Positions 10,306 through 40,384 of a stretch of DNA of 57,991 nt are shown in pieces (the stretch's first letter is position 1; each line of letters begins with the position of its first letter). The notes below the pieces were generated by a model that ran no database searches, was not told the DNA's origin, and saw only the letters and a program-made list of their open reading frames with translations. A program made the position numbers and the translations under genes. Location: NCBI GenBank assembly GCA_002305205.1, contig DBQJ01000021.1:6448-64438 (forward strand), given 5' to 3'. This stretch comes from a candidate division WWE3 bacterium UBA1397 (GTDB taxonomy: Bacteria; Patescibacteriota; WWE3; UBA101185; UBA10185).

Positions 10306-10353
10306 ATTGGCTCCCCATTGTTGTATTTATCCGAAGTTTAATACCCGTATTTG
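10306..10353 (+). repeat. attL-type junction; 48-bp direct repeat copy 1 (core + P' arm of A/C type)
   Basis: attggctccccattgttgtatttatccgaagtttaatacccgtatttg matches 25649-25696 at 45 of 48 positions (hand alignment). Confidence 0.85.
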
Positions 10354-10380
10354 CTTCCATCTAGCCTTTAGTGTTAATAT
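10351..10380 (+). promoter_or_regulatory. candidate sigma70-type promoter for the T-box-leuS transcript
   Basis: TTGCTT (10351-56), an 18-nt spacer, then an extended -10 TGtTAATAT (10372-80). Sequence inspection only. Confidence 0.35.
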
Positions 10381-15682: not shown

Positions 15683-17266
15683 ATGTATGGATTAGAAGAA
15701 CTAAAACCAAAAGTTGGAACAAAACTGAAAGCTGTTGATTATGAAAGAGTCAGCACGCCTGGACAGGTTGTAAACGGTCATTCAATGGAGGTGCAGAAAA
15801 AGATGTTCACTACGCTTGTCGAACAGCACGATATTGAGGTTCTTAAAACATTTGAAGACCCTGGACGTTCTGCAAGAGATTTGAATAGGCGTGACATAGA
15901 AGAACTGATGGATTTTTGTGATGATAATGCCGCAGTACTTGATGTTGTTTTTGTACAAGATACTTCACGGCTTTGTCGCAATGTTCAAGACCACTTAGCC
16001 CTCAAAGCCTTCTTGAAGAAGCGTAATATAAAACTTATTCCTTTAGACGGTTATTTTGGAGAGGGAGACGAAGCGGAGTTTGCAGATGTTGTGGTGGCGG
16101 CTATAAATCAGCTGGAAAGCCGTAGAACTGCGAAAAAAACAAAAAGAGTAATGAAGGCTCTTGCTGAGAAGGGTATAAAACCTGGGATGTCAGGGATAGG
16201 CTATCTAAACTCATACCAGAAAGACAAACCCATATACCCAGACCCCGAACGCCGATACTTTATTTATGATATTTACGAGCTATGGTTGACAGGTAATTAT
16301 TCCGTTGCCAGTATCGCTGATATTGAGTTTTCAAAAGGATTTCGTACAAAAAGTGGCGGAAAAGTTCAGAAAAACACAATTACCAATATCCTCAAAAATA
16401 TACTTTATGCAGGTGGTTTGAAATATGATGGCGTAGAATATGAAAAGGCGGCACATGAAGCCATCGTTCCACCTGACTGGTACAACCGCTCTCTTGCTAT
16501 GTTTGAGAAGAAAAACAAAGGTGCCAACCGAAACAGAAAACATACAACCTTATTAGCAGGTTATTGCTACTGCTTAAAATGTGGTCGTCAGATGGCGGCT
16601 GAGTATCACCCACGGGCAAACTACTATTCTTGTGGCAGTTGTGAAAAGACCAATGTACCACTTGAAAAAGTTGACAAGAAAGTGCGGGCTTTCTTTCATG
16701 GTACTGTGTTTTCTGAAAAAGCATTGGAAAATCTACGAAATGTTTTATATGAAGTCAAAGCCGAGCAAGGCATTAGTGTTCCTGAACAACTTAAAACACT
16801 TAGACAAAGGCGAGATATTTTGGATAAAAAAATGAAGCAGCTTGAAGATAAGATGTTTGGTGGTGATGACCTCGTCGATTCCGAAAGACTAAAAGAACGC
16901 TACAAGCCCCTTAAAGAGGAACTTAAACAGGTAGATGAGCAAATAGCCCAGATGGATAAACCCTCAACTACTCTTAAAGATTCTGAGATTGAAAAAGTCA
17001 TCAAAGGTATGCGGAACATTGGTGAGCTTTATGATGCCATGACAAAGATTCAGCAAAAGCAGTTTTTACGCTTTTTTATTTCAAAGGCTTTCTTGGAAAA
17101 GGAACGGCTGATAACGAGTTTTGAGTATGTACCAGAGTTTAAGGCTTTAATATCAAGAGACTTGGTTCGTATAAAGTCCAATTGGCTCGCTTGCTGGAAC
17201 GATTTTCGTACATTAGAAATAGAGAGTTTTGTTTATGAGGAAGCTTTAGCAGTATTAAGCGCATAA
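15683..17266 (+). CDS. large serine recombinase (element A)
   Basis: Resolvase catalytic domain (AVDYERVSTPGQ with the catalytic Ser; DTSRLCR), recombinase domain, Cys4 zinc ribbon (CLKCG...CGSC), and coiled coil. The last 22 codons lie beyond the core at 17191. Confidence 0.9.
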   Translation: MYGLEELKPKVGTKLKAVDYERVSTPGQVVNGHSMEVQKKMFTTLVEQHDIEVLKTFEDPGRSARDLNRRDIEELMDFCDDNAAVLDVVFVQDTSRLCRNVQDHLALKAFLKKRNIKLIPLDGYFGEGDEAEFADVVVAAINQLESRRTAKKTKRVMKALAEKGIKPGMSGIGYLNSYQKDKPIYPDPERRYFIYDIYELWLTGNYSVASIADIEFSKGFRTKSGGKVQKNTITNILKNILYAGGLKYDGVEYEKAAHEAIVPPDWYNRSLAMFEKKNKGANRNRKHTTLLAGYCYCLKCGRQMAAEYHPRANYYSCGSCEKTNVPLEKVDKKVRAFFHGTVFSEKALENLRNVLYEVKAEQGISVPEQLKTLRQRRDILDKKMKQLEDKMFGGDDLVDSERLKERYKPLKEELKQVDEQIAQMDKPSTTLKDSEIEKVIKGMRNIGELYDAMTKIQQKQFLRFFISKAFLEKERLITSFEYVPEFKALISRDLVRIKSNWLACWNDFRTLEIESFVYEEALAVLSA

Positions 17267-19697: not shown

Positions 19698-19706
19698 ATA
19701 ACCCTC

Positions 19707-20168: not shown

Positions 20169-20171
20169 CTT

Positions 20172-20806: not shown

Positions 20807-21152
20807 TGTAATGAGCCCATTATCTCACTATAAGCATTTTCTGACTATATTTTTTCTATAAAGGGAAAGCGTATAAACTACACGTAGCGATTGAGATTAT
20901 TTCAATAGGTTTGTATTAATATAACTGTTATTATTCCTTGTAGTTAAGGGATAGGTATTAAAATACATTAAAAATAAAAAAATGCTTTATAAAGGGTATA
21001 GATTACATACTCTTTAACCTATATATCCTATTATTTACACCTATTATTTTCCATCAAAGGTGTGATGCTATGACCCGATTAAGACCAACGGGGGTGTGTA
21101 AACTTGAGCTACCCGTACCCTATATAACCTGAAATAGTATAATTGCCTTATT

Positions 21153-21929: not shown

Positions 21930-21988
21930 ATACCTGTTCGTTAACTAGGTCTTTTATCAAAGTATTAATCACGATTTAGATTAAGCTT

Positions 21989-22252
21989 ATGATTTATGAA
22001 AATAAACATAAGCCTGAAAATGAGAACAATTATTACAACACCTCTGATTTATATCTTGTTGCAACCTTAACTCTTTGGTATCCCATTGAGAGTCTAGACA
22101 AAACAAATCCCGAAAAAACCGTTTTCAACTTTCTTTTTACCGAAGATTTCCAAAAAACTTTAGATAAATATTGGCGTAATGAACTTTTAGTTGAACCTAA
22201 AGCATTACTTAATAACCTCAAAGTAATCAAAACTAGGTTATATGAGGAGTAA
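21989..22252 (+). CDS. small conserved element protein (DUF5659-like), paralog of 14411-14674
   Basis: 87 aa: DLYLVATLTLWYPIESLDKTNPEKTVFNF...DKYWRNELLVEPKALLNNLKVIKTRL. Confidence 0.5.
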   Translation: MIYENKHKPENENNYYNTSDLYLVATLTLWYPIESLDKTNPEKTVFNFLFTEDFQKTLDKYWRNELLVEPKALLNNLKVIKTRLYEE

Positions 22253-22254
22253 GC

Positions 22255-22404
22255 ATGCTTTCGGAAAGTTTATTACTTGAACTTACTCAGTTATTCAAAG
22301 AGGAGTTCAGTATTGAACTAACAAAAGAGGATACAAAGGATTTAGCAGATTTTTTGTTGAGTTATTTCTCGTTGCTGCTAGGTATAGGTGAAGGATATGA
22401 ATAA
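22255..22404 (+). CDS. micro-ORF (49 aa), element B counterpart of the conserved micro-ORF
   Basis: Hand translation MLSESLLLELTQLFKEEFSIELTKEDTKDLADFLLSYFSLLLGIGEGYE. Same position (directly after the DUF5659-like gene) as in element A. Confidence 0.35.
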   Translation: MLSESLLLELTQLFKEEFSIELTKEDTKDLADFLLSYFSLLLGIGEGYE

Positions 22405-22615
22405 CGATAAACGACTTGATATCAATAGACTTTGTTATTTCGTGGACCTTTACTGTAAAAAAGTTGATTTAGGTTCGAAGTATTTTATGTTGCGAGTAGA
22501 AGCTCTTAGAAAAGGTGACAAAGAAAAAGTTGAATACATAGAAAACATGTTACTAAAACCTGCTGATATTCAAGCCGAATATGCAGCAAAGAAGATTTTG
22601 CAAGTATTAAGTTAA
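22397..22615 (+). CDS. hypothetical small protein
   Basis: 72 aa from ATG 22397 (the track starts at GTG 22388). Confidence 0.4.
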   Translation: MNNDKRLDINRLCYFVDLYCKKVDLGSKYFMLRVEALRKGDKEKVEYIENMLLKPADIQAEYAAKKILQVLS

Positions 22616-22629
22616 CAGGAAATATTTTT

Positions 22630-23994
22630 ATGAAAAATGTAGATGAAGAAATATATGAAGAAATATATGAAGATGAAAATCTAGATAGTTTCCCAATAGA
22701 TACATCAATATTTAAGCCCATGGGTGCTAGTGACATTATCCGTATTTTGGAACCCACAATTAAACAAGATAATACTAATAAGTTTTTGGTGTTTGCTGCG
22801 ATGCTAAATGCATACACAGAAGAAAATCAGATGAATATTGCTTTTATTGCTCCCTCTAGCTCGGGTAAGAGTCATATACCCCATGAGGTATCCATGTTAT
22901 TTCCGAAAGAAGACATCATAATGCTGGGGTCTGCCTCCCCAACAGCCTTTTATCATGACATGGGTGCTTATGATAAAGAAACTAATACACTAACAGTTGA
23001 TTTGGAAAGAAAAATAGTTATCTTTTTAGACCAACCGAACACTGCATTATTGGAGAGGTTAAGAGCACTCTTGTCTCATGATGAAAAGGAAGTAAAAAAC
23101 AAAATAACCGATAAAAGTGAGAAAAAAGGTATGAGAACTAAGAATGTTATTTTGCGTGGGTTCTCAACATTCGTGTTCTGTACTGCGGGTCTAAAAGTAG
23201 ATGAGCAGGAAAGTACAAGGTTTTTACTTTTAAGTCCTGAAATAAATCAAGAAAAAATCCGTGAAGCTGTATTGCAAAGGATTCGCAAGGGTTCCGACTC
23301 TGAAAGCTTTTATAAGATATTAAACTCCGACCCAGAAAGGAAGTTACTTAAACAAAGAATATTAGCCATAAAACAAGCTCACATTATAGATATAAAAATA
23401 CATAATCCAAATCTGGTTGAGGAGATGTTTTTTCAAAGGCAAAAGAAGTTAAAACCCCGTGACCAGAGAGATATTGCGAAGATTATGAACATAATAAAAT
23501 CGTTTGCATTGATTAATTATTGGTTTAGGGAAAAGGATGGTTTAAGCATAGTAGCTAATGACGAAGATATCAAAAATGCATTTGAAATATGGGATTCTTT
23601 ATCAGATGCTCAATCTTTAGGGTTACCTCCTTATATTTACGATTTATATAATGATGTGATTGTTGCTGAGTTTCATAAGGTTAACGATAAGAATATTGGT
23701 GTTCCAGTAGGCTTAACACGCGGCAGAATCTCATCTACCCATTATGAAGTATATGGTCGATATATTGCTGATTGGCAATTACGCCAAATAATAACCATGT
23801 TAGAAACAGCTGGTCTTATTTATCAGGAGGCTGACGAAATAGATAAAAGGAAAATGTTAGTCTATCCAACTTTTGCCAAAAAGGAGTCCCGTTCAAATAA
23901 TAGTGAGGTGATAGGTGGGGTTCTAGCAGATTTAGACAATCCTGAGGGTTTACTTGATATTTTCGATGGAAATCTCCCCGATTTAGATATATAA
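22630..23994 (+). CDS. P-loop NTPase, putative replication helicase/primase-type protein
   Basis: Walker A APSSSGKS, candidate Walker B VIFLDQP, and a C-terminal winged-helix-like region. Its position just upstream of the recombinase is as in integrative plasmids. Confidence 0.5.
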   Translation: MKNVDEEIYEEIYEDENLDSFPIDTSIFKPMGASDIIRILEPTIKQDNTNKFLVFAAMLNAYTEENQMNIAFIAPSSSGKSHIPHEVSMLFPKEDIIMLGSASPTAFYHDMGAYDKETNTLTVDLERKIVIFLDQPNTALLERLRALLSHDEKEVKNKITDKSEKKGMRTKNVILRGFSTFVFCTAGLKVDEQESTRFLLLSPEINQEKIREAVLQRIRKGSDSESFYKILNSDPERKLLKQRILAIKQAHIIDIKIHNPNLVEEMFFQRQKKLKPRDQRDIAKIMNIIKSFALINYWFREKDGLSIVANDEDIKNAFEIWDSLSDAQSLGLPPYIYDLYNDVIVAEFHKVNDKNIGVPVGLTRGRISSTHYEVYGRYIADWQLRQIITMLETAGLIYQEADEIDKRKMLVYPTFAKKESRSNNSEVIGGVLADLDNPEGLLDIFDGNLPDLDI

Positions 23995-24087
23995 TTACTG
24001 TGCGTTCAGGAATACTATTGGATTTTTTTATGCCTCCATTGGTACAGAACCCAATAGTTCTGAACGCGACCAGTGGGGGCATATTTT

Positions 24088-25701
24088 ATGAAAAAAGCAT
24101 TAATATTTTGTAGAGTAAGTTCAAAGGAACAAGAAGAAACGGGCTACTCTTTACCTGCCCAGAAAAAACTTCTTGAAGATTACTCAATCCAACACGACTA
24201 TATAGTTGCCAAAGTATTTTCCATATCAGAATCCGCTAGCGGTGAAAAACAAAGAAAAATATTTAATGAGATGTTAGCTTACCTCGAGAAGAATCACATA
24301 GATATTTTAGTAGTTGAAAAAACTGACCGTCTTACAAGAAATCATCGGGATGCTGTTGAAGTAGATAAATGGATAAATAAGGATTCAAATAGACAAGTTC
24401 ATTTTGTTAAAGAAAACTTTGTTCTACATAAGGACTCAAAATCTAATGAAAAGTTTATATGGAACATTAAGGTTTCAGTTGCTCAATATTACATTGATAA
24501 CTTGAGTGAGGAAGTTAAAAAGGGACAGAAAGAAAAGCTTTCACAAGGTTGGCTACCTACAAAACCGCCCATAGGATACAAAACAATTGGTGAAAAAGGA
24601 CATCGTATACATGTAGTTGATGAAATCACAAAACCATTAGCAATCAAAATGTTCAAATACTATGTTTCAGGTAATTATTCTTTAGAGAGACTCGCCACTA
24701 AGTTATATGAGGAGGGTTTGAGGTCCGTTAATGGTAAGAAGGTTCCTAAAAGTAGAATCCATGAATATTTATCCGACCCATTTTACATTGGTATGAATAG
24801 GTGGAACGGTAAGCAAAGTAATGGTAATCAAGAAACATTTATAGATAAGGATATATTCAACAAAGTCCAGTTACTGCTAAAAGGCAAAACAACACCAAAG
24901 GTTAATAAACATGATTTTCCATTTAAGGGACAGGTAAAATGTGCTGAGTGTAAAGGTTTAGTAACTTGGGAAATCCAAAAAGGTACTAATTATGGTCATT
25001 GTAACCATTACAGACCATGTTCACAACTAAAGTGGGTAAAAGAAAAGAACTTGGAAAATCAAGTAAAGCCATCTATAGCAGCTCTTAAGGTGAAAAATGA
25101 ACGGTTGCTGGATTGGATACGTAGGGCATTAAAAGAAACCCATTACGAGGAATCACGACAATATGAGAATGTATCCAAAAGCCTCCAGGAAAGAGACGAA
25201 CAGCTTAAAAAGAGATTAAGTGCTCTTTATATCGACAAACTAGATGGAAAGATAACTGAAGATTTCTATCAGGAAAAGTTTCAGGAGTTTACAGGCGAAA
25301 GAAACGAACTAGTAGAGCAAAGAAAGAAGCTCAATACTAAAGATAATAGCTTTTATGAGAAAACTACTGCTTTATACGATGTTGCTCAAAAAGGGATTGA
25401 TATATACGAAGCATCTAAAGAGTTTAGGAAACGCCGATTAATAAAACTTATTTTTACTGATATGACCCTTAATAACGGAATCCTTGATTTTGCATATACC
25501 AAGCCATATAGAATGTTACGCAGGGCTGTGGAAGAAACTAACGGTTCGAAAATAGCTGAAAACCCTACTTTTATGGAAAATATTTTCGAACTTAAGGATT
25601 TTGGCGATGTTAAAGCAAAAATGGAGTCTTTAGGCGTTGATTGTTCTAATTGGCTCCCCATTGTTGTATTTATCCGAAGTTTGATACCTGTATTGGTATA
25701 A
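24088..25701 (+). CDS. large serine recombinase (element B)
   Basis: ALIFCRVSSKEQ (catalytic Ser), EKTDRLTRN, recombinase domain, zinc ribbon CAECKG...CNHY..C, and coiled coil. The ORF crosses the core at 25649. Confidence 0.9.
   Translation: MKKALIFCRVSSKEQEETGYSLPAQKKLLEDYSIQHDYIVAKVFSISESASGEKQRKIFNEMLAYLEKNHIDILVVEKTDRLTRNHRDAVEVDKWINKDSNRQVHFVKENFVLHKDSKSNEKFIWNIKVSVAQYYIDNLSEEVKKGQKEKLSQGWLPTKPPIGYKTIGEKGHRIHVVDEITKPLAIKMFKYYVSGNYSLERLATKLYEEGLRSVNGKKVPKSRIHEYLSDPFYIGMNRWNGKQSNGNQETFIDKDIFNKVQLLLKGKTTPKVNKHDFPFKGQVKCAECKGLVTWEIQKGTNYGHCNHYRPCSQLKWVKEKNLENQVKPSIAALKVKNERLLDWIRRALKETHYEESRQYENVSKSLQERDEQLKKRLSALYIDKLDGKITEDFYQEKFQEFTGERNELVEQRKKLNTKDNSFYEKTTALYDVAQKGIDIYEASKEFRKRRLIKLIFTDMTLNNGILDFAYTKPYRMLRRAVEETNGSKIAENPTFMENIFELKDFGDVKAKMESLGVDCSNWLPIVVFIRSLIPVLV
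25649..25696 (+). repeat. 48-bp direct repeat copy 2 (core + P' arm), inside the 3' end of the element B recombinase gene
   Basis: attggctccccattgttgtatttatccgaagtttgatacctgtattgg. See copy 1. Confidence 0.85.
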
Positions 25702-25741
25702 AAACCAACAAAAAATCACTATTTACTTATCCACGAGCCTT

Positions 25742-25760
25742 ATATTCAATATATGAATAT
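25742..25760. promoter_or_regulatory. candidate ArsR operator palindrome
   Basis: ATATTCA-atata-TGAATAT: 7-bp perfect inverted arms overlapping the arsR start codon. Confidence 0.4.
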
Positions 25761-26061
25761 GAGTTCATATAACTGTTGTAAGCCAGACGAACATACTTAT
25801 AGACAGGTAACTACTATATCCTCACTTCTAAAACTTGTTGGAGAAGAAAGTAGATTGAAGATTCTCTGTATTTTGATGAAGGGTCAGCATTGTGTTTGTG
25901 AGATATTGGAACATCTTAAACTTTCCCAAAGCCTTGTATCCCATCATCTTCAGGACCTTAAAACAGCAAGTTTAATAGTGGATGAGAAAAAAGGTCAGTA
26001 TGTCTATTACTCATTAACGGAAGAAGGTAAAAGGGTTACAAAGTTAATTTTCCAATTATAA
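25753..26061 (+). CDS. arsR: ArsR/SmtB-family metalloregulator
   Basis: LKILCILMKGQHCVCEILEHLKLSQSLVSHHLQDLKTASLI is the classic ArsR HTH with a CVC site, plus an N-terminal CC pair. Confidence 0.85.
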   Translation: MNMSSYNCCKPDEHTYRQVTTISSLLKLVGEESRLKILCILMKGQHCVCEILEHLKLSQSLVSHHLQDLKTASLIVDEKKGQYVYYSLTEEGKRVTKLIFQL

Positions 26062-26063
26062 CT

Positions 26064-26753
26064 ATGAAAAACCTAACTATTGAATGGAAGCATTATGATA
26101 AGCAAGGAAAGACCTGCATACGATGTACCGATACTGGTAAATCTTTAAGGCAGTTATTTACCGAAATAGGTGATTTACCGGAGTTAAAAGATGTAAAGAT
26201 TAGTTTCATTGAAACGAAGTTATCGGAAAACCAAATGTCAGAGTCAAACAGCCTTCTACTAAATGGCGTGCCTATTGAAGATTTGATTGGAGCAACAATT
26301 TCTCATAACGCTTGTGACTCGTGTTCGGACCTTGCGGATAGCGACTGTTATTGTAGAGCAGTTACTGTAGAAAACATTACTTATGAAAGCATACCTGTTG
26401 AGCTGATTAAAAAAGCGGTCTTAAAAGTATTAAACGCTCCAGATTCTAATAAATTGAAAGGAGTAAATATGAACATTCAAGTATTGGGTTCCGGCTGTCC
26501 CACCTGTAAAAAGTTACACGAGATTACCAAACAAGCCGTTAAGGAGTTAAACCTTTCTGTAGAAGTAGATTACATAACCGATGTTACAAAGATAATAGAA
26601 ATGGGTGTAATGAGTAGCCCCGTCCTTGCTGTTAATGGTAAACCGGTGATGGTAGGTTTTACCCCTGATATAGATAAGATTAAAGGGGCGATTTCAATGG
26701 GAATAATAAACAGTAATACTTCTGGTGGTTGTAGTTGCGGAGGAAATTGTTAA
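26064..26753 (+). CDS. DUF2703-like domain fused to a thioredoxin-fold redox-active disulfide protein (Thioredoxin_3 type), Cys-rich tail
   Basis: N-terminal half: IEWKHYDKQGKTCIRC...CDSC...CYCRAV.VE...YESIPVELI. C-terminal half: IQVLGSGCPTCKKL...GVMSSPVLAVNGKPV. Tail: GGCSCGGNC. Confidence 0.7.
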   Translation: MKNLTIEWKHYDKQGKTCIRCTDTGKSLRQLFTEIGDLPELKDVKISFIETKLSENQMSESNSLLLNGVPIEDLIGATISHNACDSCSDLADSDCYCRAVTVENITYESIPVELIKKAVLKVLNAPDSNKLKGVNMNIQVLGSGCPTCKKLHEITKQAVKELNLSVEVDYITDVTKIIEMGVMSSPVLAVNGKPVMVGFTPDIDKIKGAISMGIINSNTSGGCSCGGNC

Positions 26754-26755
26754 TT

Positions 26756-27736
26756 ATGGACATTTTCAGCCCGCTACAGTTGTTTGCAGACCTTGTTACA
26801 TACCATTTGTTAGGTGTGGTACCCCATTCCTATCTTGGGGATACCATAAACTTCTTTATCTACGATGTTCTAAAAATAGGGCTTCTCCTTGTAGCTATAA
26901 ATTATTTAATGGCTGTGGTGCGTTTCTACTTCCCAATGGAGAAAGCACGGGACATACTTACTAAACGCAGATGGTATGGATTGGATTATTTACTAGCCGC
27001 TTTGCTCGGAGTAGTGACCCCATTTTGTTCGTGTTCATCTATTCCATTATTTATCGGGTTTGTCGGCGCGGGTATTCCTCTTGGTGTAACCTTCGCTTTT
27101 CTTATTAGCTCGCCTTTAATAAATGAGGCGTCCCTTTATTTATTCCCAGCTATGTTTGGTATGAAAGTGACAATTATTTACAACCTGATTGGAATAGCTG
27201 TTGCGGTATTAGGTGGCTTAATAATACAAAAGCTAAATGTTGAAAGGTTTGTTAAACCGGAGCTGTTAAAGTTTAAGTCAAAGCAACAGGTTATTATAGA
27301 AAACGGAGGTTCCCCCCTCCCTTTCAAAGAGTTAATTAAGTATTTCTGGAAAGATGGAATGAGCATAACCAAGAATGTTTTCCCCTATGTTGTTTTAGGG
27401 GTTAGCGTTGGTGCTTTAATACACGGCTTTGTTCCAGCATCTTTAGTTGAAAAATATCTGTCGGCAAGGACTATATGGGCGATACCATTAGCTGTTTTAC
27501 TTGGGGCACCTTTATACGCAAACTCTGTAAGTGTAATACCTGTAATGGAAGCCCTAGTTGGAAAGGGCGTCCCTTTGGGGACAGCATTAGCCTTTATGAC
27601 ATCTATTGTTACAATTTCAATCCCCGAAGCTCTGATTTTGAAAAAGGTAATGAGATGGCAACTACTGGCTACCTTTTTTGGCATTACTGTTGCTGGAATA
27701 ATAGTGATGGGTTATATACTTAATATAGTTATTTGA
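26756..27736 (+). CDS. ArsP_1/DUF318-type permease
   Basis: About 8 TM helices with the hallmark TPFCSCSSIPLF motif. The arsR / thioredoxin-like / permease gene order is a recurrent conserved cluster. Confidence 0.75.
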   Translation: MDIFSPLQLFADLVTYHLLGVVPHSYLGDTINFFIYDVLKIGLLLVAINYLMAVVRFYFPMEKARDILTKRRWYGLDYLLAALLGVVTPFCSCSSIPLFIGFVGAGIPLGVTFAFLISSPLINEASLYLFPAMFGMKVTIIYNLIGIAVAVLGGLIIQKLNVERFVKPELLKFKSKQQVIIENGGSPLPFKELIKYFWKDGMSITKNVFPYVVLGVSVGALIHGFVPASLVEKYLSARTIWAIPLAVLLGAPLYANSVSVIPVMEALVGKGVPLGTALAFMTSIVTISIPEALILKKVMRWQLLATFFGITVAGIIVMGYILNIVI

Positions 27737-27746
27737 AAGAGGTTAT

Positions 27747-28238
27747 ATGGCTAAAAATCTTTTCAGACTACAGACAACCGTTTTGTTAGTTGGAACATTA
27801 TTTGCTTGGTTTACTGTCTATACCGATTTTTCCCGTTTCTATAATCTATATGGTTCTCTGACCAGAATATCCGGTTGTACTATACCTAATCCTGTTACAA
27901 CACCTTGTTTTTACGGGGCATTTGCGTTCCTGTTAGGTTTTATTTGGTCCTTTAACATCCTTAAAAAGGTTCTGAAAGACGAAACTGTGGTTAGTGAGCA
28001 AAGGAATCTAGGGTATCTGTTAGTTGCAGGCACACTATTTGCCTGGGGCAACTTTTCTTACGAACTAATAAAATACTATACTGCAACAACTGCCGTGAAG
28101 GTATCTTGTTCTGGGGTAGCTACAAACAATGTATTTTTAACTTCCTGCTTTTATGGCTCCGTTATCTTCCTGGCAGCTCTAATCATTTCTACAGTTATAA
28201 GAAAAAGTGTTTTACGAATAAAACCCGAGGCAAACTGA
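27747..28238 (+). CDS. 4-TM membrane protein made of two internal repeats, each with a Cys pair
   Basis: Repeat 1 LVGTLFAWF...SGCTIPNPVTTPCFYGAFAF. Repeat 2 VAGTLFAWG...CSGVATNNVFLTSCFYGSVIF. Confidence 0.55.
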   Translation: MAKNLFRLQTTVLLVGTLFAWFTVYTDFSRFYNLYGSLTRISGCTIPNPVTTPCFYGAFAFLLGFIWSFNILKKVLKDETVVSEQRNLGYLLVAGTLFAWGNFSYELIKYYTATTAVKVSCSGVATNNVFLTSCFYGSVIFLAALIISTVIRKSVLRIKPEAN

Positions 28239-28242
28239 AAAA

Positions 28243-29364
28243 TTAGTTTGTAAGGTTATATTCAATAAAAGAAGAATCATCATATTTTCCATTCTGCATC
28301 CTATGAGAGATTCCATCTGATTTTAGCTTAACCTCGACCTTTAGTTTTCCATTAGCATTTTGAAAATCTTGCGGTGTTACTTTATACAGAAAGTACGGTT
28401 TTTCGGAAAAAGCATTAGCTCCTCTGGTTTGTGTATAGAAAGCAGTAAAATCCGGCGAGTTAGATGAGAATAAATAGTACAGTTTCTTATCCTCTTTTAA
28501 GTTTGTTCCGGTAGCAGCGATAAAAAGATAATCTCCAGCCTTCAGGTTTGTTGATGAAGTTGTAACCGTGTATTTCTCCGGACCCGTGTAACCATTTGAT
28601 GCAGATTGTTTCACAATGGTTCCTAAATCATCGTACACCTCACTAATAATTGGGTACTGTTGGTCATTGATACCGTAATAAACTTGACTATCTTCCGCAT
28701 TAGTTTCCTTTTCTCCGGCTAGCAGTTCCTTTATTGTTGGTTTATATCTGTTGTTTATGGCTTGTTGGTTAAATGCAGAATAATCTGGATTTTGCTCAAG
28801 ATTGTTTTCGATATTAAAATCTGTGTTTGCTTTGTTTAAGGTGTTCCAACTAGCCATTTTTGCCGGATAGGTTTCGTTAGCGTATTTATTCCACATTTCA
28901 TCTGTCATCTGGTTGTTGTAATAGGCACGCATATTATCAAGATATTCTTTATCTAACGCATAAAGTTGTTTTTTTTCGTCTAGCCGGTTGTTGATTAGCT
29001 CTGTGAACTTCTCCCAAGCCTGCGGGTCTATCTTTGCCGCTTGTTCTGTTAAATCAACGGATTTTTTAAGGTTAGTATTTAAGTTGTTTTCAAAAAGGTT
29101 TATAGCTTCTAATCCTTTTTCAGAACGGATTATAGTTCCCTTAACATAGTCGCTAATTGCTAGGTCTTTTATTGAATAAATTGACGCTGCTTCGGCTGAT
29201 TGGTGAAGCAAGTCTCTGGCATTGTTAATATCGGCAAATACTCGCTTTTGCTGATAAGCATCACGGGCGTTCAAATAAGTACCCGCTACAAACAGCCCTG
29301 CAAAACCTAAACAAAAAACAACAAATATAACTCCAAGTATTTTCAAGATTTTCTTAACTTTCAT
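28243..29364 (-). CDS. N-terminally anchored extracytoplasmic protein
   Basis: 373 aa with a single N-terminal TM. Its start overlaps the upstream gene's stop by 4 nt. Confidence 0.55.
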   Translation of the reverse strand: MKVKKILKILGVIFVVFCLGFAGLFVAGTYLNARDAYQQKRVFADINNARDLLHQSAEAASIYSIKDLAISDYVKGTIIRSEKGLEAINLFENNLNTNLKKSVDLTEQAAKIDPQAWEKFTELINNRLDEKKQLYALDKEYLDNMRAYYNNQMTDEMWNKYANETYPAKMASWNTLNKANTDFNIENNLEQNPDYSAFNQQAINNRYKPTIKELLAGEKETNAEDSQVYYGINDQQYPIISEVYDDLGTIVKQSASNGYTGPEKYTVTTSSTNLKAGDYLFIAATGTNLKEDKKLYYLFSSNSPDFTAFYTQTRGANAFSEKPYFLYKVTPQDFQNANGKLKVEVKLKSDGISHRMQNGKYDDSSFIEYNLTN

Positions 29365-29819
29365 TTTAGAGCCTCCTTTTTGAATAAAGAAAATAAATAG
29401 AAAAGATAAAAAGATGCAGCCAAATCTAACGGCACCCAGGTGCTTCTTGGAAGTTCCGGAACAACAAATGGATTAAATAAAACAAGAATGGAGATTAAAC
29501 CAAATAACCTAATGTCTGAAACATACTTTTTATACCTTACAAGAAGGTAGGAACCTATCACGATAGTGAAAAGTCGCAGGGCATCGTAATAATCAAAATC
29601 GTAATCGTCCGCTTCAAATGGGAGCACCGCCAACAGATACATACCACATAGCGGTAACAAGCATAATTGTGCAAGTTTGTTTAGGTTATTTTTAGTAAAT
29701 AACGATGAAATAAAGTGCTTTATCTTAATAAAATTATCTCGAAATAACAGCACAACTACAGGGATTCCAATGAAGAATAAAATAGGCAATATAGTGTTGT
29801 ATACCGTACTTTCTGACAT
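29361..29819 (-). CDS. integral membrane protein (4 TM), first gene of the element C minus-strand operon
   Basis: 152-aa hydrophobic ORF whose start abuts the structured leader. Confidence 0.55.
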   Translation of the reverse strand: MSESTVYNTILPILFFIGIPVVVLLFRDNFIKIKHFISSLFTKNNLNKLAQLCLLPLCGMYLLAVLPFEADDYDFDYYDALRLFTIVIGSYLLVRYKKYVSDIRLFGLISILVLFNPFVVPELPRSTWVPLDLAASFYLFYLFSLFKKEALK

Positions 29820-29930
29820 AACAAAGGGACTACCTTCTTCGTAGCCCTAGCTTGTCAGCATTGAACCCTCGGAAAGGTAGCCCCTTCGTAGGTTCAATGC
29901 CTTTTAAGTCGGCGTGACTGACAAGCTAGG
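29820..29930 (-). ncRNA. structured 5' leader, copy 2 (same architecture as 20697-20806)
   Basis: P1 CCUAGCUUGUCAG/CUGACAAGCUAGG; P2 GCAUUGAACC/GGUUCAAUGC. The loop AAGGGGCUACCUU pairs with AAGGUAGUCCCUU just before the AUG. A TATAAT box lies 14 nt upstream (29950-29945, minus strand). Confidence 0.55.
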
Positions 29931-30143
29931 TTTTTACTTCTCTGATTATATCGTCATTAGGCTATATAGCATAGGATTTTAATAAAATGTGTAAGGATTA
30001 CACCCTTTTTGCCTATTTAGCCTATTCAAAAATATAAGTGCAAAGTGTATGGATATAACCGGTTATGTGTATTTTGAGCCTCGAAAATTGAACTATCCCT
30101 ACCCCATACACCCCTAATTATTGTTACGATGTAAAATAAAACT

Positions 30144-31154
30144 ATGAAAACTGAATCTAGCAATGATTCGGTGTCTTGGAAAACGGACGCCGGAGAAGAT
30201 GGCACTCTGTTTCGAATGTGGAGATTCTTCTCAAATATCAGCGACAGCCTATTATTAAAAGTTGCAATCAACAAGGAGTTTGGTCAGGATGTCGGAGAAA
30301 TACGAGATAAGTTAAGTATTGATGTGACACGGCTGCGTTCACTTCTTTTGAAGAAGATTTCTAACCCTAGGGTTCTATATTATGCTTTACGCTATAAAAA
30401 CGACCTACCAAAAGACGAAAGTGGTTATGTTGAGGGAAACGAAAGCTATGAACAGGAATACGACGGATTGGGTGCAAAAGAACCTAGATATCTTAAAGAC
30501 ACCGATGCAGCCGCATTGTTACTAGGATTAAAAGAGTTAGGTGTCCTTGAAAAGGAGTATGTTTCGAAGAATGTTGAAGATGATGTAGCAAAGTTGCTGA
30601 AAAAATACCATTTAAGTTATAGGTACTTTCGTCGTGTAGAGAGTATAGTTTTGTATAACGATTTCCCACCTGTACCTGCTTTGTGGGATATGGACTATAG
30701 AGATTTTGTAGGTGATGACTTAACAAAAGAGGACCGCAAAAAATTAGAACCGTTGCTCAAGAATATGGATAAAGAGTTTAAGGCGACGCTAGATACAGAG
30801 GTTTACCGAACGCCCGTTACTTACTTTGATAAGGATAAAAAATGCGTTGTTGTTGAGATATATCCGGACACTTCTTTAGAGCTATTCAAAAGTAAAAATT
30901 ACAAATCTAAACTATTAGAGTTTCAGAAATTACTTTTAGGTTATAGATACACAGATATTAGTTACGATGGCTATGCCGATGCTCTTTACTATTACTTTAC
31001 AACATATAAACATATGAGCCAGAAAGAGGCTTTGTCAAAGATGAAGAAAATCTATGGTCGTAAATATGTTAAGGGTTTTGATAGCGAGGTGACGGCGAGA
31101 GCAAGTACAAGAAAACGCCGATTTGAAAAATACGCTAAAGACATAAGTGAGTAA
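30144..31154 (+). CDS. hypothetical protein (element C)
   Basis: 336-aa ORF. No motif recognised. Confidence 0.5.
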   Translation: MKTESSNDSVSWKTDAGEDGTLFRMWRFFSNISDSLLLKVAINKEFGQDVGEIRDKLSIDVTRLRSLLLKKISNPRVLYYALRYKNDLPKDESGYVEGNESYEQEYDGLGAKEPRYLKDTDAAALLLGLKELGVLEKEYVSKNVEDDVAKLLKKYHLSYRYFRRVESIVLYNDFPPVPALWDMDYRDFVGDDLTKEDRKKLEPLLKNMDKEFKATLDTEVYRTPVTYFDKDKKCVVVEIYPDTSLELFKSKNYKSKLLEFQKLLLGYRYTDISYDGYADALYYYFTTYKHMSQKEALSKMKKIYGRKYVKGFDSEVTARASTRKRRFEKYAKDISE

Positions 31155-31159
31155 TCTAC

Positions 31160-31195
31160 CTAACGCCAGCGATAACCTACAGCGTTAGCATTTTT
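31160..31195 (+). terminator. candidate intrinsic terminator after 30144-31154
   Basis: Stem ctaacgc/gcgttag followed by cattttt. Confidence 0.45.
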
Positions 31196-31275
31196 CCCTA
31201 TTCCATAGTGCTACTCTAAAAATTGCTAGAAAAGTTTTCACCGCCTGGGGGTTGTGGTAACACAAAGCGGGTTTG

Positions 31276-31304
31276 ACCGACCTCCCCCAGGGGTCGGTTT
31301 TTTA
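31276..31304 (+). terminator. candidate terminator/attenuator hairpin upstream of the element C micro-ORF
   Basis: Stem accgacc/ggtcggt with the loop tcccccagg, followed by tttttt. The loop can also pair with cctggggg at 31244-31251. Confidence 0.4.
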
Positions 31305-31315
31305 TAAGCAAAAAT

Positions 31316-31492
31316 ATGAGCGAAAAAGCAAATGTACAAAAAAAGAATAAGGAAAATGATACGCAAATTGTAAGTGACCAAGATATGGCTGAATACCTTC
31401 GACAGTTTGCCGCTTTTTTACTAACGGTATTTTCTGAAAATAAAATTATTTCTGGGGGTCGCTATGGCGAATGCGAAACAAATAAAAAATGA
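31316..31492 (+). CDS. micro-ORF (58 aa), element C counterpart of the conserved micro-ORF
   Basis: Hand translation contains MAEYLRQFAAFLLTVFSENK, matching MLEYLRQLACFLLSLSEGKK of element A. It overlaps the start of the next gene. Confidence 0.4.
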   Translation: MSEKANVQKKNKENDTQIVSDQDMAEYLRQFAAFLLTVFSENKIISGGRYGECETNKK

Positions 31493-32348
31493 GGAAAACC
31501 TTTTATCTGATTGGATAGCATTTCCCAGAAAAATCTCAAGTATGTACAAGAATGGTGAGATAAACAGACCGGAGTACCTTGTTTGTTTACACTTACGGCT
31601 TCAAGCTAATCCCTATGGAATAAGCTCTACTTGCCTAGAGGCAATAAGAAATGATGTGTTTGGAAAGAGTACGGGTCATAAAGGTGTAACTCTAAATTAT
31701 GTAAATAAAATACTACTTTCCTTAAAGCGTAAGAGGATGTTGTACTATCAAGACAGGGCTGGGAGGTCAGGTTCGTTTGAGATTCGCTTTGCCGATTTTA
31801 TTGACCCTAACAAGAACATTACTGATATAAAACACCTATTTGAAAGTGACTATAGTAAGAGAAGTAGCACACCTTTGAGAGTATCCGTATCAGAGGTTAC
31901 TGCAGAACTCAAAGAAGAAAATCAGAGGTTTGAAAATCCAATAAATGAGGGGGTGAAAACTAACGAAGATGTTGGTGCAAAGGGAATAATCACAGGTTAT
32001 AATAATGATACCGATATACAAAACAAGATTGAAAATACCGATATATCGGTTTCTTATAAAAAGGGAGATGGGGAAAAACCACTACCCGAGTATGTGTGTA
32101 GAAACCCAACCGATAGTTTCGCACCGAACGGGTATGAGGAAAACACAGCTAAAGAAATTGCGGGTGGGATTGGCGAAAAATGTATGGACCGATACCTAGC
32201 CCTTATACGGAAGGGTCAGTTTGGTGTTTTGGAAAAAGCGTTTGGAGAGTTTAAGGAAGACTTGGAGAATGGAAAAAACCCTAGTGATAAGCCCGCTTAC
32301 CTTAACAGCATAATTACAAGAATGCTTAAAGAAAAAATTGGAAAATAG
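31464..32348 (+). CDS. winged-helix-like DNA-binding protein, paralog of 14771-15658
   Basis: 294 aa. See 14771-15658. Confidence 0.6.
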   Translation: MANAKQIKNEENLLSDWIAFPRKISSMYKNGEINRPEYLVCLHLRLQANPYGISSTCLEAIRNDVFGKSTGHKGVTLNYVNKILLSLKRKRMLYYQDRAGRSGSFEIRFADFIDPNKNITDIKHLFESDYSKRSSTPLRVSVSEVTAELKEENQRFENPINEGVKTNEDVGAKGIITGYNNDTDIQNKIENTDISVSYKKGDGEKPLPEYVCRNPTDSFAPNGYEENTAKEIAGGIGEKCMDRYLALIRKGQFGVLEKAFGEFKEDLENGKNPSDKPAYLNSIITRMLKEKIGK

Positions 32349-32354
32349 TTTTAT

Positions 32355-33890
32355 ATGTATGGTTTAGAAGAACTAAAACCAAAAATAGGAACAAGATTAA
32401 AAGCCGTCGATTACGAGCGTGTAAGCACGCCTGGTCAGGTAATAAACGGGCATTCGATGGAAGTGCAAAGAAAACTTTTTACAACTCTAGTAGAGCAACA
32501 CGATATTGAAGTTCTCAAAACTTTTGAGGACCCAGGGAAATCTGCCAGAAATCTTAATCGAAGGGACATTGAGGAGCTTATGGATTTTTGTGATGACAAC
32601 TCTGACCTTTTGGATGTTGTTTTTGTGCAGGATACCTCAAGGCTTTGTAGAAATGTAGCCGACCATTTAGCCTTAAAAGCATTTCTGAAAAAAAGAGATA
32701 TAAAACTCATCCCGCTTGATGGTTACTTTGGCGATTCTGATGAGGGTGAGTTTGCGGATATTGTTGTTGCAGCAATTAACCAGCTTGAAAGTAGAAGAAC
32801 AGGTAAGAAAACAAAGCGTGTAATGCTAGCACTCGCAGAAAAGGGTTTGAAACCAGGAATGGCTCCACTTGGCTACCTAAACTCCTATCAAAAGGATGTT
32901 CCGATTAAACCAGACCCCGAAAAGAAGCATTTTATTTACTGTATTTATGAGATGTGGCTAACCGGAAGCTACTCTGTAAAAGCAATCGCTGATATCCAAT
33001 TTGAAAAGGGCTTTCGTTCTAAAGAAGGTAAGCAAGTTCAAAAAAATACGATAACAAATATCCTAAAAAATATACTCTATGCTGGTGGATTATTTTACGA
33101 CGGAATAAAATATGAAAAAGCGATGCACGAAGGTATAGTTCCTTTGGATTGGCATTACCGTTCTCTTGCTATGTTTGAAAAGAAAAACAAAGGTGCAAAT
33201 CGAAATAGAAAATATGTAACGCTGTTAGCCGGATATGCCACTTGTCTGAAGTGTGGAAATCAAATGTTTGGTGAATATCATCCAAAAGGTAATTATTATC
33301 GCTGTCAGCATTGTGCAAAAACTAATGTTTCCCTTGAAGATGCCGACGATAAAGTTTCAGCCTTCTTTCACGGAACCGTATTTACAGAAGAAGCCTTGCG
33401 TAAGTTAAGGGATGCGCTCTACGAGGTCAAAAAGGACCAAGGCTCGAGTGTTCCAGAACAGCTAAAGACTTTAAGGCAACGAAGGGACGCTCTGGACAAG
33501 AAAATGCGAGTAATTGAGGACAAGATGTTCTCCGGTGATGAGTTAGTGGATTCTGAACGCTTAAAAGGTAGATATCAGCCACTAAAGGATGAGTTGAGGA
33601 TTGTGGAAGGTCAAATTAAAGACCTAGATAAGCCTTCTACCAATCTTAAAGATTCCGAGATTGAGAAGATTATCAAAGGTTTGAGAAACATTGGTGACCT
33701 TTACGATGCAATGACCAAGCCACAACGAAAGCAGTTTATAAGGTTTTTTATCTCAAAAGCATTTCTGGAGAAGGAGCGGGTTGTAACGAGTTTTGAGTTC
33801 GTACCAGAGTTTGAGGCTTTAGTTACAAGGGATTTAGTTCGTATAAGGGCTAATTGGCTCCCCCGCGTGGATTCGAACCACGAACCTTGA
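32355..33890 (+). CDS. large serine recombinase (element C), 3' end antisense to tRNA-Asn
   Basis: 56 of the first 61 residues are identical to the element A enzyme (hand count), with the same domain layout. The ORF ends PRVDSNHEP, encoded by the complement of the tRNA T-arm. Confidence 0.9.
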   Translation: MYGLEELKPKIGTRLKAVDYERVSTPGQVINGHSMEVQRKLFTTLVEQHDIEVLKTFEDPGKSARNLNRRDIEELMDFCDDNSDLLDVVFVQDTSRLCRNVADHLALKAFLKKRDIKLIPLDGYFGDSDEGEFADIVVAAINQLESRRTGKKTKRVMLALAEKGLKPGMAPLGYLNSYQKDVPIKPDPEKKHFIYCIYEMWLTGSYSVKAIADIQFEKGFRSKEGKQVQKNTITNILKNILYAGGLFYDGIKYEKAMHEGIVPLDWHYRSLAMFEKKNKGANRNRKYVTLLAGYATCLKCGNQMFGEYHPKGNYYRCQHCAKTNVSLEDADDKVSAFFHGTVFTEEALRKLRDALYEVKKDQGSSVPEQLKTLRQRRDALDKKMRVIEDKMFSGDELVDSERLKGRYQPLKDELRIVEGQIKDLDKPSTNLKDSEIEKIIKGLRNIGDLYDAMTKPQRKQFIRFFISKAFLEKERVVTSFEFVPEFEALVTRDLVRIRANWLPRVDSNHEP

Positions 33891-33929
33891 AGTTAACAGC
33901 TTCCTGCTCTACCGTTGAGCTACAGGGGA
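33855..33929 (-). tRNA. tRNA-Asn (GUU), CCA encoded
   Basis: Hand-folded cloverleaf: acceptor UCCCCUG/CGGGGGA, D arm GCUC..GAGC, anticodon loop CUGUUAA, T arm CGUGG-UUCGAAU-CCACG, discriminator G, then CCA. Confidence 0.9.
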
Positions 33930-40308: not shown

Positions 40309-40384
40309 GGGTGATTAGCTCAATTGGTAGAGCAAGCGTCTTATACACGCTCGGTTCCTGGTTCGAGTCCAGGATCACCCACCA
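40309..40384 (+). tRNA. tRNA-Ile with genomically encoded UAU anticodon, CCA encoded
   Basis: Hand fold: GGGUGAU/AUCACCC acceptor, GCUC-AAUUGGUA-GAGC, anticodon arm AGCGU-CUUAUAC-ACGCU (anticodon UAU), T arm CCUGG-UUCGAGU-CCAGG, discriminator A. Confidence 0.85.

What the first reader, a model, noticed from the sequence alone, without database searches (positions are those of the whole stretch)
33853..33929. Recombinase ORFs run across the crossover, so integration state rewrites their C-terminal tails (and RecC ends antisense inside tRNA-Asn)
In all three enzymes the codons AAT TGG CTC (N-W-L) are the att core, and everything after them is encoded by whatever DNA lies across the junction.

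In the integrated state:
- RecA ends NWL-ACWNDFRTLEIESFVYEEALAVLSA, encoded by element B DNA.
- RecB ends NWL-PIVVFIRSLIPVLV, encoded by element C DNA.
- RecC ends NWL-PRVDSNHEP, encoded by the complement of the tRNA T-arm and overlapping the tRNA by 36 nt.

After excision:
- RecA would instead end NWL-PIVVFIRSLIPVFASI (10314-10364).
- RecC would end NWL-PIVVFIRSLIPVLV.
- RecB would gain the 25-aa acidic tail.

The near-identity of the two PIVVFIRSLIPV-encoding arms is compatible with selection at either the DNA level (attP half-site) or the protein level. This could be a built-in integration/excision switch. It is conceptually similar to SSV-type archaeal integrases, whose gene is split by integration, but I do not know of it for large serine recombinases. 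The core is therefore constrained by both the tRNA 3' end (GAGCCA) and the protein coding.
Basis: partly seen in the sequence, partly recalled or inferred. Interest (0 to 1): 0.7.

Follow-up and report, generated by a model that had tools for sequence, protein, structure and literature searches.

The report
Serine integrase genes spanning their attP
Three small mobile elements sit head-to-tail at a tRNA-Asn gene, and each one's large serine integrase gene runs across its own recombination crossover, so the enzyme carries a conserved C-terminal tail only when the element is excised, an arrangement shared by many relatives in candidate-phyla-radiation bacteria.

Summary
Three large serine recombinase (LSR) genes are RecA 15683-17266, RecB 24073-25701 and RecC 32355-33890. 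Each reads through AAT TGG CTC into DNA that belongs to something else: the next element's left end, or the antisense of tRNA-Asn (36-nt overlap).

Homology breaks exactly at the core at four junctions (10306, 17181, 25649, 33853). This defines a tandem array of three integrative elements.

The arrangement is a family trait. Every RecA/RecC homologue with a readable 3' end, and most of the 120 best RecB homologues, keep a [W/L]-L core codon pair followed by one of three tails: tRNA-antisense, a neighbour's tail, or a conserved "excised-state" tail.

The excised-state tail looks protein-selected. For PIQNFIRSL[ILV]PVF[AV], in-frame pN/pS is 0.37-0.48 against 1.1-1.7 in the other two frames, and only 1 of 1000 column shuffles did as well. 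The RecB-type tail is a roughly 30-aa helical module.

So integrated and excised states make different isoforms. What the tail does (integration, directionality or stability) is inferred, not shown.

I found no LSR precedent. The concept is known from Mx8 IntP/IntX, SSV1 and mycobacteriophage integration-dependent immunity, so this is a new variant of a known kind.

The parts
10306..10313 (.). Junction J1: core ATTGGCTC between the chromosomal flank and the left end of element A (attL of the array)
10314..10364 (+). P' arm of element A. In frame with TGG CTC it encodes PIVVFIRSLIPVFASI plus TAG, the tail RecA would carry when excised.
15683..17266 (+). RecA, a 527-aa large serine recombinase. 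The last 25 codons plus the stop (17189-17266) are element B DNA.
17165..17174 (+). P-arm half-site motif GTTCGTATAA, which also encodes V-R-I of RecA
17181..17188 (.). Junction J2: core between element A and element B
17189..17266 (+). P' arm of element B. It encodes ACWNDFRTLEIESFVYEEALAVLSA plus TAA, RecB's own excised-state tail of the xxWxxFRT type.
24073..25701 (+). RecB, a large serine recombinase 24% identical to RecA. It is 542 aa from the GTG start. The database protein P0024 is 537 aa, which fits a start at the ATG at 24088. The last 14 codons plus the stop are element C DNA.
25649..25656 (.). Junction J3: core between element B and element C
25657..25701 (+). P' arm of element C. 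It encodes PIVVFIRSLIPVLV plus TAA, RecC's own excised-state tail.
32355..33890 (+). RecC, a 511-aa large serine recombinase 78% identical to RecA. The last 9 codons plus the stop are the antisense of tRNA-Asn.
33837..33846 (+). P-arm half-site motif GTTCGTATAA, which encodes V-R-I of RecC
33853..33860 (.). Junction J4: core ATTGGCTC, the complement of tRNA positions 71-76 (GAGCCA) plus 2 nt of trailer. The inferred crossover lies in TGGCTC.
33861..33890 (+). Integrated-state tail of RecC, PRVDSNHEP plus TGA, read from the complement of the tRNA acceptor and T arms
33855..33929 (-). tRNA-Asn(GUU), intact, with CCA encoded. It provides the B' arm of attB.

Best explanation
The window holds three small integrative elements: A 10306-17188, B 17189-25656 and C 25657-33860. 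They inserted one after another at the 3' end of tRNA-Asn in a candidate-phyla-radiation (WWE3-like) genome. Each was inserted by its own large serine recombinase, encoded at the element's right end.

The attP site of each element lies inside the 3' end of its recombinase gene:
- The P arm (GTTCGTATAA...) encodes ...L-V-R-I-x-x-N.
- The crossover core TGGCTC encodes W-L and is the complement of the tRNA 3' end GAGCCA.
- The P' arm encodes the rest of the protein.

Only the circular, excised form therefore encodes the complete protein with its conserved tail. That tail is about 14 aa (PIQNFIRSLxPVF) for the RecA/RecC type and about 25-36 aa, helical, of the xxWxxFRT...PE...LL type for the RecB type. 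After integration the ORF instead reads into the antisense of the tRNA, or into the P' arm of whichever element integrated earlier to its right.

Shown here: the anatomy, its conservation across two LSR families, and purifying selection on the excised-state tail in the recombinase reading frame.

Inferred: because the tail can only be made from the excised form (or by chance in arrays), it must act in the excised state, most likely in integration or in regulating the enzyme. Excision must then be carried out by the tail-less isoform.
For: LSR identity:
- Pfam Resolvase + Recombinase domains.
- Four invariant Cys, a coiled-coil hairpin in the AF2 model, and Foldseek top hits to the SPbeta, Bxb1, phiC31 and LI integrases.
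- A phmmer hit to A118 integrase 4KIS covering RecC residues 224-476.

Junction anatomy:
-.

Family-wide conservation:
- 19 database homologues and about 30 loci all keep VRIxxxWL and then diverge into tRNA-antisense or other tails.
- RecB has 3607 database homologues at E <= 1e-30. Of the 120 best hits (whose tails I read), 47 have clear tRNA-antisense tails, 10 have the conserved long tail, and 2 have an A/C-type tail.
- A 28%-identical LSR reads into tRNA-Lys in the same way.

Crossover position:
- attL and attR share only TGGCTC.
- The attP symmetry centre is the last C of TGGCTC: 0.467 of positions complementary, against 0.357 for the next-best centre.
- TTCG motifs lie 5 bp further from the core in P' arms than in the tRNA arm. 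This matches the LSR rule quoted in PMC11722253.

Protein-level selection:
- For 17 distinct P' arms, entropy by codon position is 0.76 / 0.52 / 1.17.
- pN/pS is 0.48 in frame against 1.14 and 1.34 out of frame.
- Codons 9-14, beyond the half-site motif, give 0.34 against 1.2-2.0.
- Mann-Whitney p = 0.0023, and only 1 of 1000 column shuffles reached the observed value.
- The B-type tail gives 0.55 against 0.83 and 1.15, and it is better conserved than the linker before it.
- AF2 predicts three helices at residues 516-552 with pLDDT 73-78. The first helix spans the core.
Against: - No excised circle or empty attB was recovered. No contig closed on itself and the viral-contig scan found nothing.
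- The crossover is inferred from comparing junctions, not mapped experimentally.
- Part of the tail (F-I-R-S, F-R-T) is encoded by the TTCG half-site, so DNA-level and protein-level constraints overlap there.
- AF2 gives no confident structure for the short RecA/RecC-type tail (pLDDT below 50), although the alignment carried almost no tail information.
- The pairwise pN/pS counts are not phylogenetically independent, and the B-type DNA sample is small (5-7 sequences).
- No functional difference between the isoforms has been shown.
Confidence: 0.8

Rival explanations
1. Directionality switch. The conserved tail holds the enzyme in integration mode, for example by acting on the coiled-coil or zinc domain. 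Its removal on integration yields an isoform that can recombine attL x attR without a separate directionality factor. The att state itself would then set the direction of the reaction.
For: - The tail is made only in the excised state, yet it is under purifying selection.
- Excision must be catalysed by the tail-less isoform. This follows from the anatomy.
- C-terminal elements of LSRs are implicated in directionality. An SprA 'extreme C-terminal element ... molecular toggle switch' is cited in PMC11722253.
- No obvious RDF was found among the Pfam-annotated genes of the three elements.
Against: - There are no functional data.
- RDFs are small and diverse, and could be among the many unannotated ORFs.
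- In tandem arrays the recombinases carry foreign tails, which muddies a clean switch.
- AF2 gave no docking information.
Confidence: 0.25
2. Stability or dosage control. The excised-state tail acts as a degradation or instability signal, or otherwise tunes enzyme level. This would parallel mycobacteriophage integration-dependent immunity, where the viral form of the protein carries a C-terminal tag that integration removes.
For: - The RecA/RecC-type tail is short, strongly hydrophobic and ends in non-polar residues (...PVFA...PVLV).
- A precedent exists for state-dependent C-terminal tags (PMC8092301).
Against: - The RecB-type tail is a 30-aa amphipathic helical module rather than a short tag.
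- After codon 14 the extreme C-termini vary freely, which is unlike a terminal degron.
Confidence: 0.12
3. Incidental overlap. attP simply sits at the end of the gene in very compact elements. The functional protein ends near W-L, and the tail's conservation reflects only DNA recognition of the P' half-site.
For: - The F-I-R-S and F-R-T residues coincide with the TTCG half-site motif, and V-R-I with its inverted copy.
- Integrated-state tails are arbitrary, some as short as 2 residues, yet the genes stay intact.
- The short tail is predicted to be disordered.
Against: - Variation is three-periodic, and synonymous changes are in excess only in the recombinase frame. These include first-position synonymous changes CGA/AGA and TTG/CTG.
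- Conservation extends 42 nt (A/C type) to about 100 nt (B type) past the core. That is well beyond a roughly 25-bp LSR half-site.
Confidence: 0.15
4. Not separate mobile elements. The repeats come from local duplication or mis-assembly.
For: The repeated 8-11-bp core and the 42-nt arm could in principle arise by duplication.
Against: - RecA and RecC are only 78% identical, and RecB is 24% identical to them.
- Cargo differs completely between the three segments.
- The same architecture recurs in independent assemblies from several phyla.
Confidence: 0.02

Closest known systems
Myxophage Mx8 IntP/IntX
   Same: attP lies inside the integrase coding sequence. Integration creates a recombinant gene with a new 3' end, so the prophage and phage forms of the integrase differ at the C-terminus (PMC6070905). 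From memory, the target is a tRNA gene.
   Different: Mx8 Int is a tyrosine recombinase. Here the enzyme is a large serine recombinase with a short core. From memory, the swapped segment is 14-36 residues here against about 112 in Mx8.
SSV1-type archaeal integrases
   Same: The recombination site is embedded in the integrase gene, so the integration state changes the gene (from memory; reviewed in PMC8371274, which I listed but did not read in detail).
   Different: SSV integrases are tyrosine recombinases, and integration splits the gene into two large parts. Here only the C-terminal tail is exchanged and the catalytic and DNA-binding domains stay intact.
Integration-dependent immunity of mycobacteriophages
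   Same: [quoted passage not shown] Some attB sites overlap tRNA 3' ends, with the tRNA transcribed toward the truncated gene (PMC8092301).
   Different: There the affected gene is the repressor, the integrases are tyrosine-type, and the removed segment is an ssrA-like tag. Here the affected gene is the recombinase itself.
Canonical phage large serine integrases (phiC31, Bxb1, A118/LI, SPbeta SprA, R4)
   Same: Same domain architecture and fold. Short att sites with an offset of the outer half-site motif between attP and attB.
   Different: In the one classic case I could check, phage R4, the attP core lies 27 nt upstream of the start codon of the integrase gene, not inside it. Targeting a tRNA 3' end and embedding attP in the gene are not features I could find described for LSRs.
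Tycheposons and other tRNA-associated islands
   Same: Successive integrations at one tRNA site build tandem arrays, with older elements pushed away from the tRNA and decaying. A minority of these elements use large serine recombinases (bioRxiv 10.1101/2020.12.28.424599).
   Different: No gene-embedded attP or isoform change is described there, and the hosts are cyanobacteria.

Membership tests
Large serine recombinase (serine integrase) | N-terminal resolvase-type catalytic domain with the nucleophilic serine | tested here: met
   PF00239 matches all three proteins (E 1e-22 to 2e-24). R22-V23-S24 is conserved in the family.
Large serine recombinase (serine integrase) | Recombinase domain followed by a zinc-ribbon domain with an embedded coiled-coil | tested here: met
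   PF07508 hits. Invariant C297, C300, C317 and C320. AF2 shows a long helical hairpin at 337-441 in P0097. Foldseek E-values of 1e-19 to 1e-13 to the SPbeta, Bxb1, phiC31 and LI integrases. 4KIS matched by sequence.
Large serine recombinase (serine integrase) | Short att sites, with a crossover at a central dinucleotide and the outer motif 5 bp further out in attP than in attB | tested here: inconclusive
   The shared core is only TGGCTC, and the attP symmetry centre falls on its last C. TTCG motifs start 16 nt after the core in P' arms against 11 nt in the tRNA arm (rule quoted). The cleavage positions have not been mapped experimentally.
Large serine recombinase (serine integrase) | Excision requires a separate recombination directionality factor | not testable with these tools
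   No known RDF family was recognised among the element genes. RDFs have no common signature.
Gene-embedded attP with a state-dependent integrase isoform (Mx8 IntP/IntX type) | attP core lies inside the integrase ORF, and integration gives a new 3' end | tested here: met
Gene-embedded attP with a state-dependent integrase isoform (Mx8 IntP/IntX type) | Tyrosine recombinase chemistry | tested here: not met
   The enzymes are serine recombinases. The resemblance is therefore in logic, not in family membership.
Integration-dependent immunity | attP inside the repressor gene, and the viral form carries a C-terminal degradation tag | tested here: not met
   The interrupted gene is the recombinase. 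No -AA type tag is present and the tail termini vary.
tRNA-targeting integrative element in a tandem array | Direct repeats of the tRNA 3' end bound each unit, the tRNA stays intact, and a recombinase sits at the element end | tested here: met
   Four core copies, an intact tRNA-Asn, and three recombinases. The same site is occupied in at least 17 related loci.

The most novel reading that the evidence does not exclude
These CPR large serine integrases carry a built-in directionality toggle that needs no RDF. The conserved C-terminal module is encoded across attP, so it exists only in protein made from the excised circle, where it enforces integration. Integration physically deletes the module from the gene, leaving an isoform competent for attL x attR excision. 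The DNA state would then program the direction of its own recombinase.
Probability: 0.25. Interest if true: 0.85.

Novelty: new variant of a known kind. Interest (0 to 1): 0.62.

Why it matters
Serine integrases are leading tools for inserting large DNA segments, and how their direction is controlled is the central question in the field. So far the answer has been separate RDF proteins acting on the coiled-coil.

This is a large, uncultivated clade of LSRs. The RecB type alone has thousands of database homologues. In every member examined, the gene spans attP and a selected C-terminal module is present only in the excised state. That offers a natural experiment in cis-encoded control of an LSR.

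The clade also shows LSRs targeting the conserved 3' end and T-arm of tRNA genes. That would explain the spread of this lineage across tRNAs and across phyla with tiny genomes. The elements carry notable cargo, including an aminoacyl-tRNA synthetase and an ArsR/ArsP-family (arsenic-resistance-like) gene set.

If the tail proves functionless, the finding is still a clean new example of att-site and coding-sequence overlap. It would also warn annotators that the C-termini of these proteins in databases are mostly tRNA antisense.

Tried and rejected
1. Phage R4 as an LSR precedent. I recalled that its attP lay inside sre. The GenBank records show the attP core at 254-265 and ORF469 starting at 292, so attP is upstream of the gene. 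Rejected.
2. Literature. I ran eight completed full-text searches and tried several papers. I found no description of an LSR gene spanning attP, or of CPR LSR elements at tRNA genes. Older J Bacteriol papers are not held.
3. Excised circles. No contig had terminal overlaps. L027 and L028 overlap linearly rather than as circular permutations. The viral-contig scan found no relatives.
4. Long-tail proteins on contigs of 7-8 kb (L048-L050). There was no tRNA and no closure, so I cannot say whether they are in the attP state or in arrays.
5. AF2 of RecC fused to its own tail. The tail scored pLDDT below 50, which is uninformative because the alignment rows carry tRNA tails.
6. Symmetry of the attB sites and of the RecB-type attP. 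The signal was weak or absent, and B arms are not conserved.
7. T-box at Rfam gathering threshold. There was no hit. It appeared only below threshold.
Full report
**1. What is in the window**

ARAGORN and Rfam find an intact tRNA-Asn(GUU) at 33855-33929 on the minus strand. AATTGGCTC occurs exactly three times, at 17180, 25648 and 33852, where 0.46 is expected by chance. A fourth copy, GATTGGCTCCCC, lies at 10305.

Each of the three exact copies is read as N-W-L near the end of a long ORF:
- RecA, 15683-17266
- RecB, 24073-25701
- RecC, 32355-33890

All three proteins have Pfam Resolvase + Recombinase domains. RecA and RecC are 78% identical, and RecB is 24% identical to them. RecC's stop lies 36 nt inside the tRNA on the opposite strand.

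**2. The four core copies are att junctions of a tandem array**

- To the left of the cores at 17181 and 33853, the RecA and RecC genes are alike. To the right they are unrelated.
- To the right of the cores at 10306 and 25649, the DNA is 88% identical over 42 nt. To the left it is unrelated.

This is the pattern expected for chromosome | A | B | C | tRNA. Each unit carries its recombinase at the right end and a P' arm at the left end.

Cargo differs completely between the units:
- A: a class I aminoacyl-tRNA synthetase.
- B: an HNH protein and a ClpP-like protease.
- C: ArsR, DUF2703-thioredoxin and ArsP.

The gene to the right of the tRNA is a DUF1189 protein. The same neighbour appears in related genomes.

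The core ATTGGCTC is the complement of tRNA positions 71-76 (GAGCCA) plus two trailer bases. This follows directly from the sequence.

**3. The arrangement is a family trait**

RecC has 19 close database relatives (45-78% identity), from CPR bacteria where a source is named. The loci fetched come from WWE3, Saccharibacteria, Woesebacteria and TM6 (Dependentiae) genomes, plus MAGs labelled otherwise.

In every one with a readable end, the protein keeps ...LVRIxxxWL. W501 and L502 are invariant. After that the sequences diverge:
- Most continue as PRVDSNH[EQ]P, PGLDSNQQP and similar. This is the antisense of the acceptor and T arms of a tRNA-Asn that overlaps the ORF end.
- Some stop after two residues (WLPD*, WLRR*), because that particular tRNA gives an early stop.

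RecB has 3607 database homologues at E <= 1e-30. I read the C-termini of only the best 120:
- 47 end in clear tRNA-antisense tails.
- 61 fall in a mixed class that includes many ending 2-3 residues after [W/L]-L.
- 10 carry a conserved long tail.
- 2 carry a RecA/C-type tail.

A 28%-identical LSR reads into tRNA-Lys in the same way. No member with a readable 3' end stops before the core.

**4. Where the crossover is**

In 12 related elements with an identifiable left junction, attL and attR share only TGGCTC plus a few bases to its right. The bases to its left differ. In the window, element B shares only ATTGGCTC with the tRNA.

Across 12 reconstructed attP sites, the best centre of inverted symmetry is the last C of TGGCTC. 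There, 0.467 of positions are complementary, against 0.357 for the next-best centre.

The P arm carries GTTCG[TG]ATAA, which encodes V-R-I. The P' arm carries its inverse, TTAT[AC]CGAA, which encodes F-I-R-S. The tRNA arm carries TTCGAA, the T-loop, 5 bp closer to the core.

That 5-bp offset between attP and attB is the published rule for the second DNA-binding domain of serine integrases (PMC11722253).

It has not been mapped experimentally.

**5. Is the excised-state tail a protein or only a DNA site?**

I picked P' arms by DNA similarity to the window's arm, not by their peptides. This gave 17 distinct sequences. All stay open for 14 codons, with consensus P-I-Q/V-N/V-F-I-R-S-L-[ILV]-P-V-F-[AV]. 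After that they vary in length and sequence up to the stop.

| Measure | Result |
|---|---|
| Column entropy at codon positions 1 / 2 / 3 | 0.76 / 0.52 / 1.17 |
| pN/pS in frame, 17 sequences | 0.48 |
| pN/pS in frame, 13 closest sequences | 0.37 |
| pN/pS in the other two frames | 1.1-1.7 |
| pN/pS, codons 9-14 only (beyond the half-site motif) | 0.34 in frame, 1.2-2.0 out of frame |
| Third positions more variable (Mann-Whitney) | p = 0.0023 |
| Column shuffles reaching the observed pN/pS | 1 of 1000 |

Synonymous first-position changes (CGA/AGA, TTG/CTG) also occur.

For the RecB-type tail:
- Ten database proteins, the window's element B and three loci share [WLM]L-x-x-W-x-x-F-R-T-x-x-W-...-P-E-...-L-L.
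- In-frame pN/pS is 0.55, against 0.83 and 1.15 out of frame, in five sequences.
- The tail is better conserved than the 30 residues before the core: 0.38 against 0.26 mean pairwise identity.

AlphaFold2 of one long-tail protein (P0097) gives a confident LSR body and a disordered linker at 493-514. Three short helices follow at 516-552 with pLDDT 73-78, and the first of them spans the core. Integration would cut this module in two.

The model of RecC joined to its own 14-residue tail was uninformative, with pLDDT below 50.

I conclude that the tail is translated and selected as protein. I note that the F-I-R-S and F-R-T residues are also constrained as DNA.

**6. How it most likely works**

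Shown: the gene spans attP. The excised circle encodes a complete enzyme with a conserved tail. The integrated copy encodes the same enzyme with an arbitrary tRNA-antisense tail or a neighbour's tail.

Inferred:
- The tail can only be made from the excised form (or by accident in arrays). Its selection must therefore come from a role in that state, such as integration into a new host, or control of enzyme activity or level.
- Excision must be done by the tail-less isoform.
- Arrays probably grow at the tRNA side. B arms are not conserved, so the previous element's P arm plus the tRNA can serve as attB. Element C would then be the newest (compare tycheposons).
- Internal junctions J2 and J3 have P-type arms on both sides. 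Single internal elements may therefore be hard to excise, whereas J1 x J4 could release the whole array. This is speculation.

Three functional readings remain open:
- a directionality toggle,
- a stability or dosage signal,
- no function.

I rate these 0.25, 0.12 and 0.15. The remainder is some other role in integration.

**7. Comparison with what is known**

The enzymes are members of the large serine recombinase family by domain content, invariant residues and fold.

Embedding attP in a gene so that integration rewrites the C-terminus is known for three systems:
- Mx8 integrase (PMC6070905).
- SSV-type integrases (from memory).
- Repressors of mycobacteriophages with integration-dependent immunity (PMC8092301).

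All of these involve tyrosine recombinases.

I checked the one LSR case I thought I remembered, phage R4. Its attP core lies 27 nt upstream of the integrase start codon, not inside the gene. Eight full-text searches found no description of an LSR gene spanning attP, or of these CPR elements. The library lacks most subscription journals, so absence there is weak evidence.

A role for the extreme C-terminus of an LSR in directionality has been proposed for SPbeta SprA, as cited in PMC11722253. That makes the toggle idea reasonable, but it is not evidence for it here.

**8. Verdict**

The protein-versus-DNA question is resolved in favour of protein-level selection. The functional switch is untested.

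This is a new variant of a known kind. Interest is 0.62.

Noticed in passing
window 10408-10648 and 10735-12591: Element A carries a class I aminoacyl-tRNA synthetase gene (PF00133 plus the anticodon-binding domain, 618 aa). It is preceded by a full-length T-box-like leader scoring 49.4 bits, E 7e-10, which is below Rfam's gathering score of 93. This would be a mobile, T-box-regulated synthetase in a CPR genome.
   Followed up: partly
window 25753-27736: Element C carries ArsR-family, DUF2703 + thioredoxin and ArsP-permease genes, which look like an arsenic or organoarsenical resistance cassette.
   Followed up: partly
window 40309-40384; also L003 19359-19434 and L004 21191-21265: A tRNA-Ile with anticodon UAU is present. 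From memory, this anticodon is uncommon in bacteria. It recurs near the same locus in related WWE3 genomes.
   Followed up: no
L022 122, 677, 1591; L043 691-1605; L003 242; L004 396; L002 5014: Extra TGGCTC cores followed by P'-like arms lie to the left of the recombinase-bearing element. They bound short segments (0.5-2.6 kb) with cargo but no recombinase and no P arm. They may be decayed older elements or non-autonomous units.
   Followed up: partly
L007 ~11480-11515, L023 ~11495-11530, L012 ~11477-11515; L002 11504 versus 12275: In some loci the recombinase reads into only the 3' part of a tRNA-Asn. The homology stops in the anticodon loop, and ARAGORN calls no tRNA there. L002 has such a fragment 770 bp before the real tRNA. 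This suggests a second kind of insertion or duplication at the same tRNA.
   Followed up: no
L018 7051-8604 with tRNA-Lys at 8563-8637: A distant LSR (28% identity) in a Berkelbacteria genome ends ...GSWRAVWDSDPRRSP, reading antisense into tRNA-Lys. The layout therefore extends to another lineage and another tRNA.
   Followed up: partly
L007, L008, L010, L015, L016, L017 (core at about 11474 in the 21-kb loci): Near-identical recombinase 3' ends (identical or near-identical P arm) are followed by at least five different right-hand sequences. The same element type therefore sits next to different neighbours, or in different states, in different samples.
   Followed up: no
window 12648-13067 and 17331-19435: Element A encodes a terminase-small-subunit-like HTH protein. 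Element B encodes an HNH protein and a ClpP-like SDH protease. Most other element genes have no Pfam match, including the conserved ~295-aa gene just upstream of RecA and RecC (14771-15658 and 31464-32348).
   Followed up: no
database proteins P0003-P0019, P0025-P0143: Most deposited C-termini of these recombinases (...PRVDSNHEP...PRLDSNQQP and similar) are translations of tRNA antisense. Protein lengths and C-terminal 'conservation' in databases therefore reflect the tRNA, not the enzyme.
   Followed up: yes
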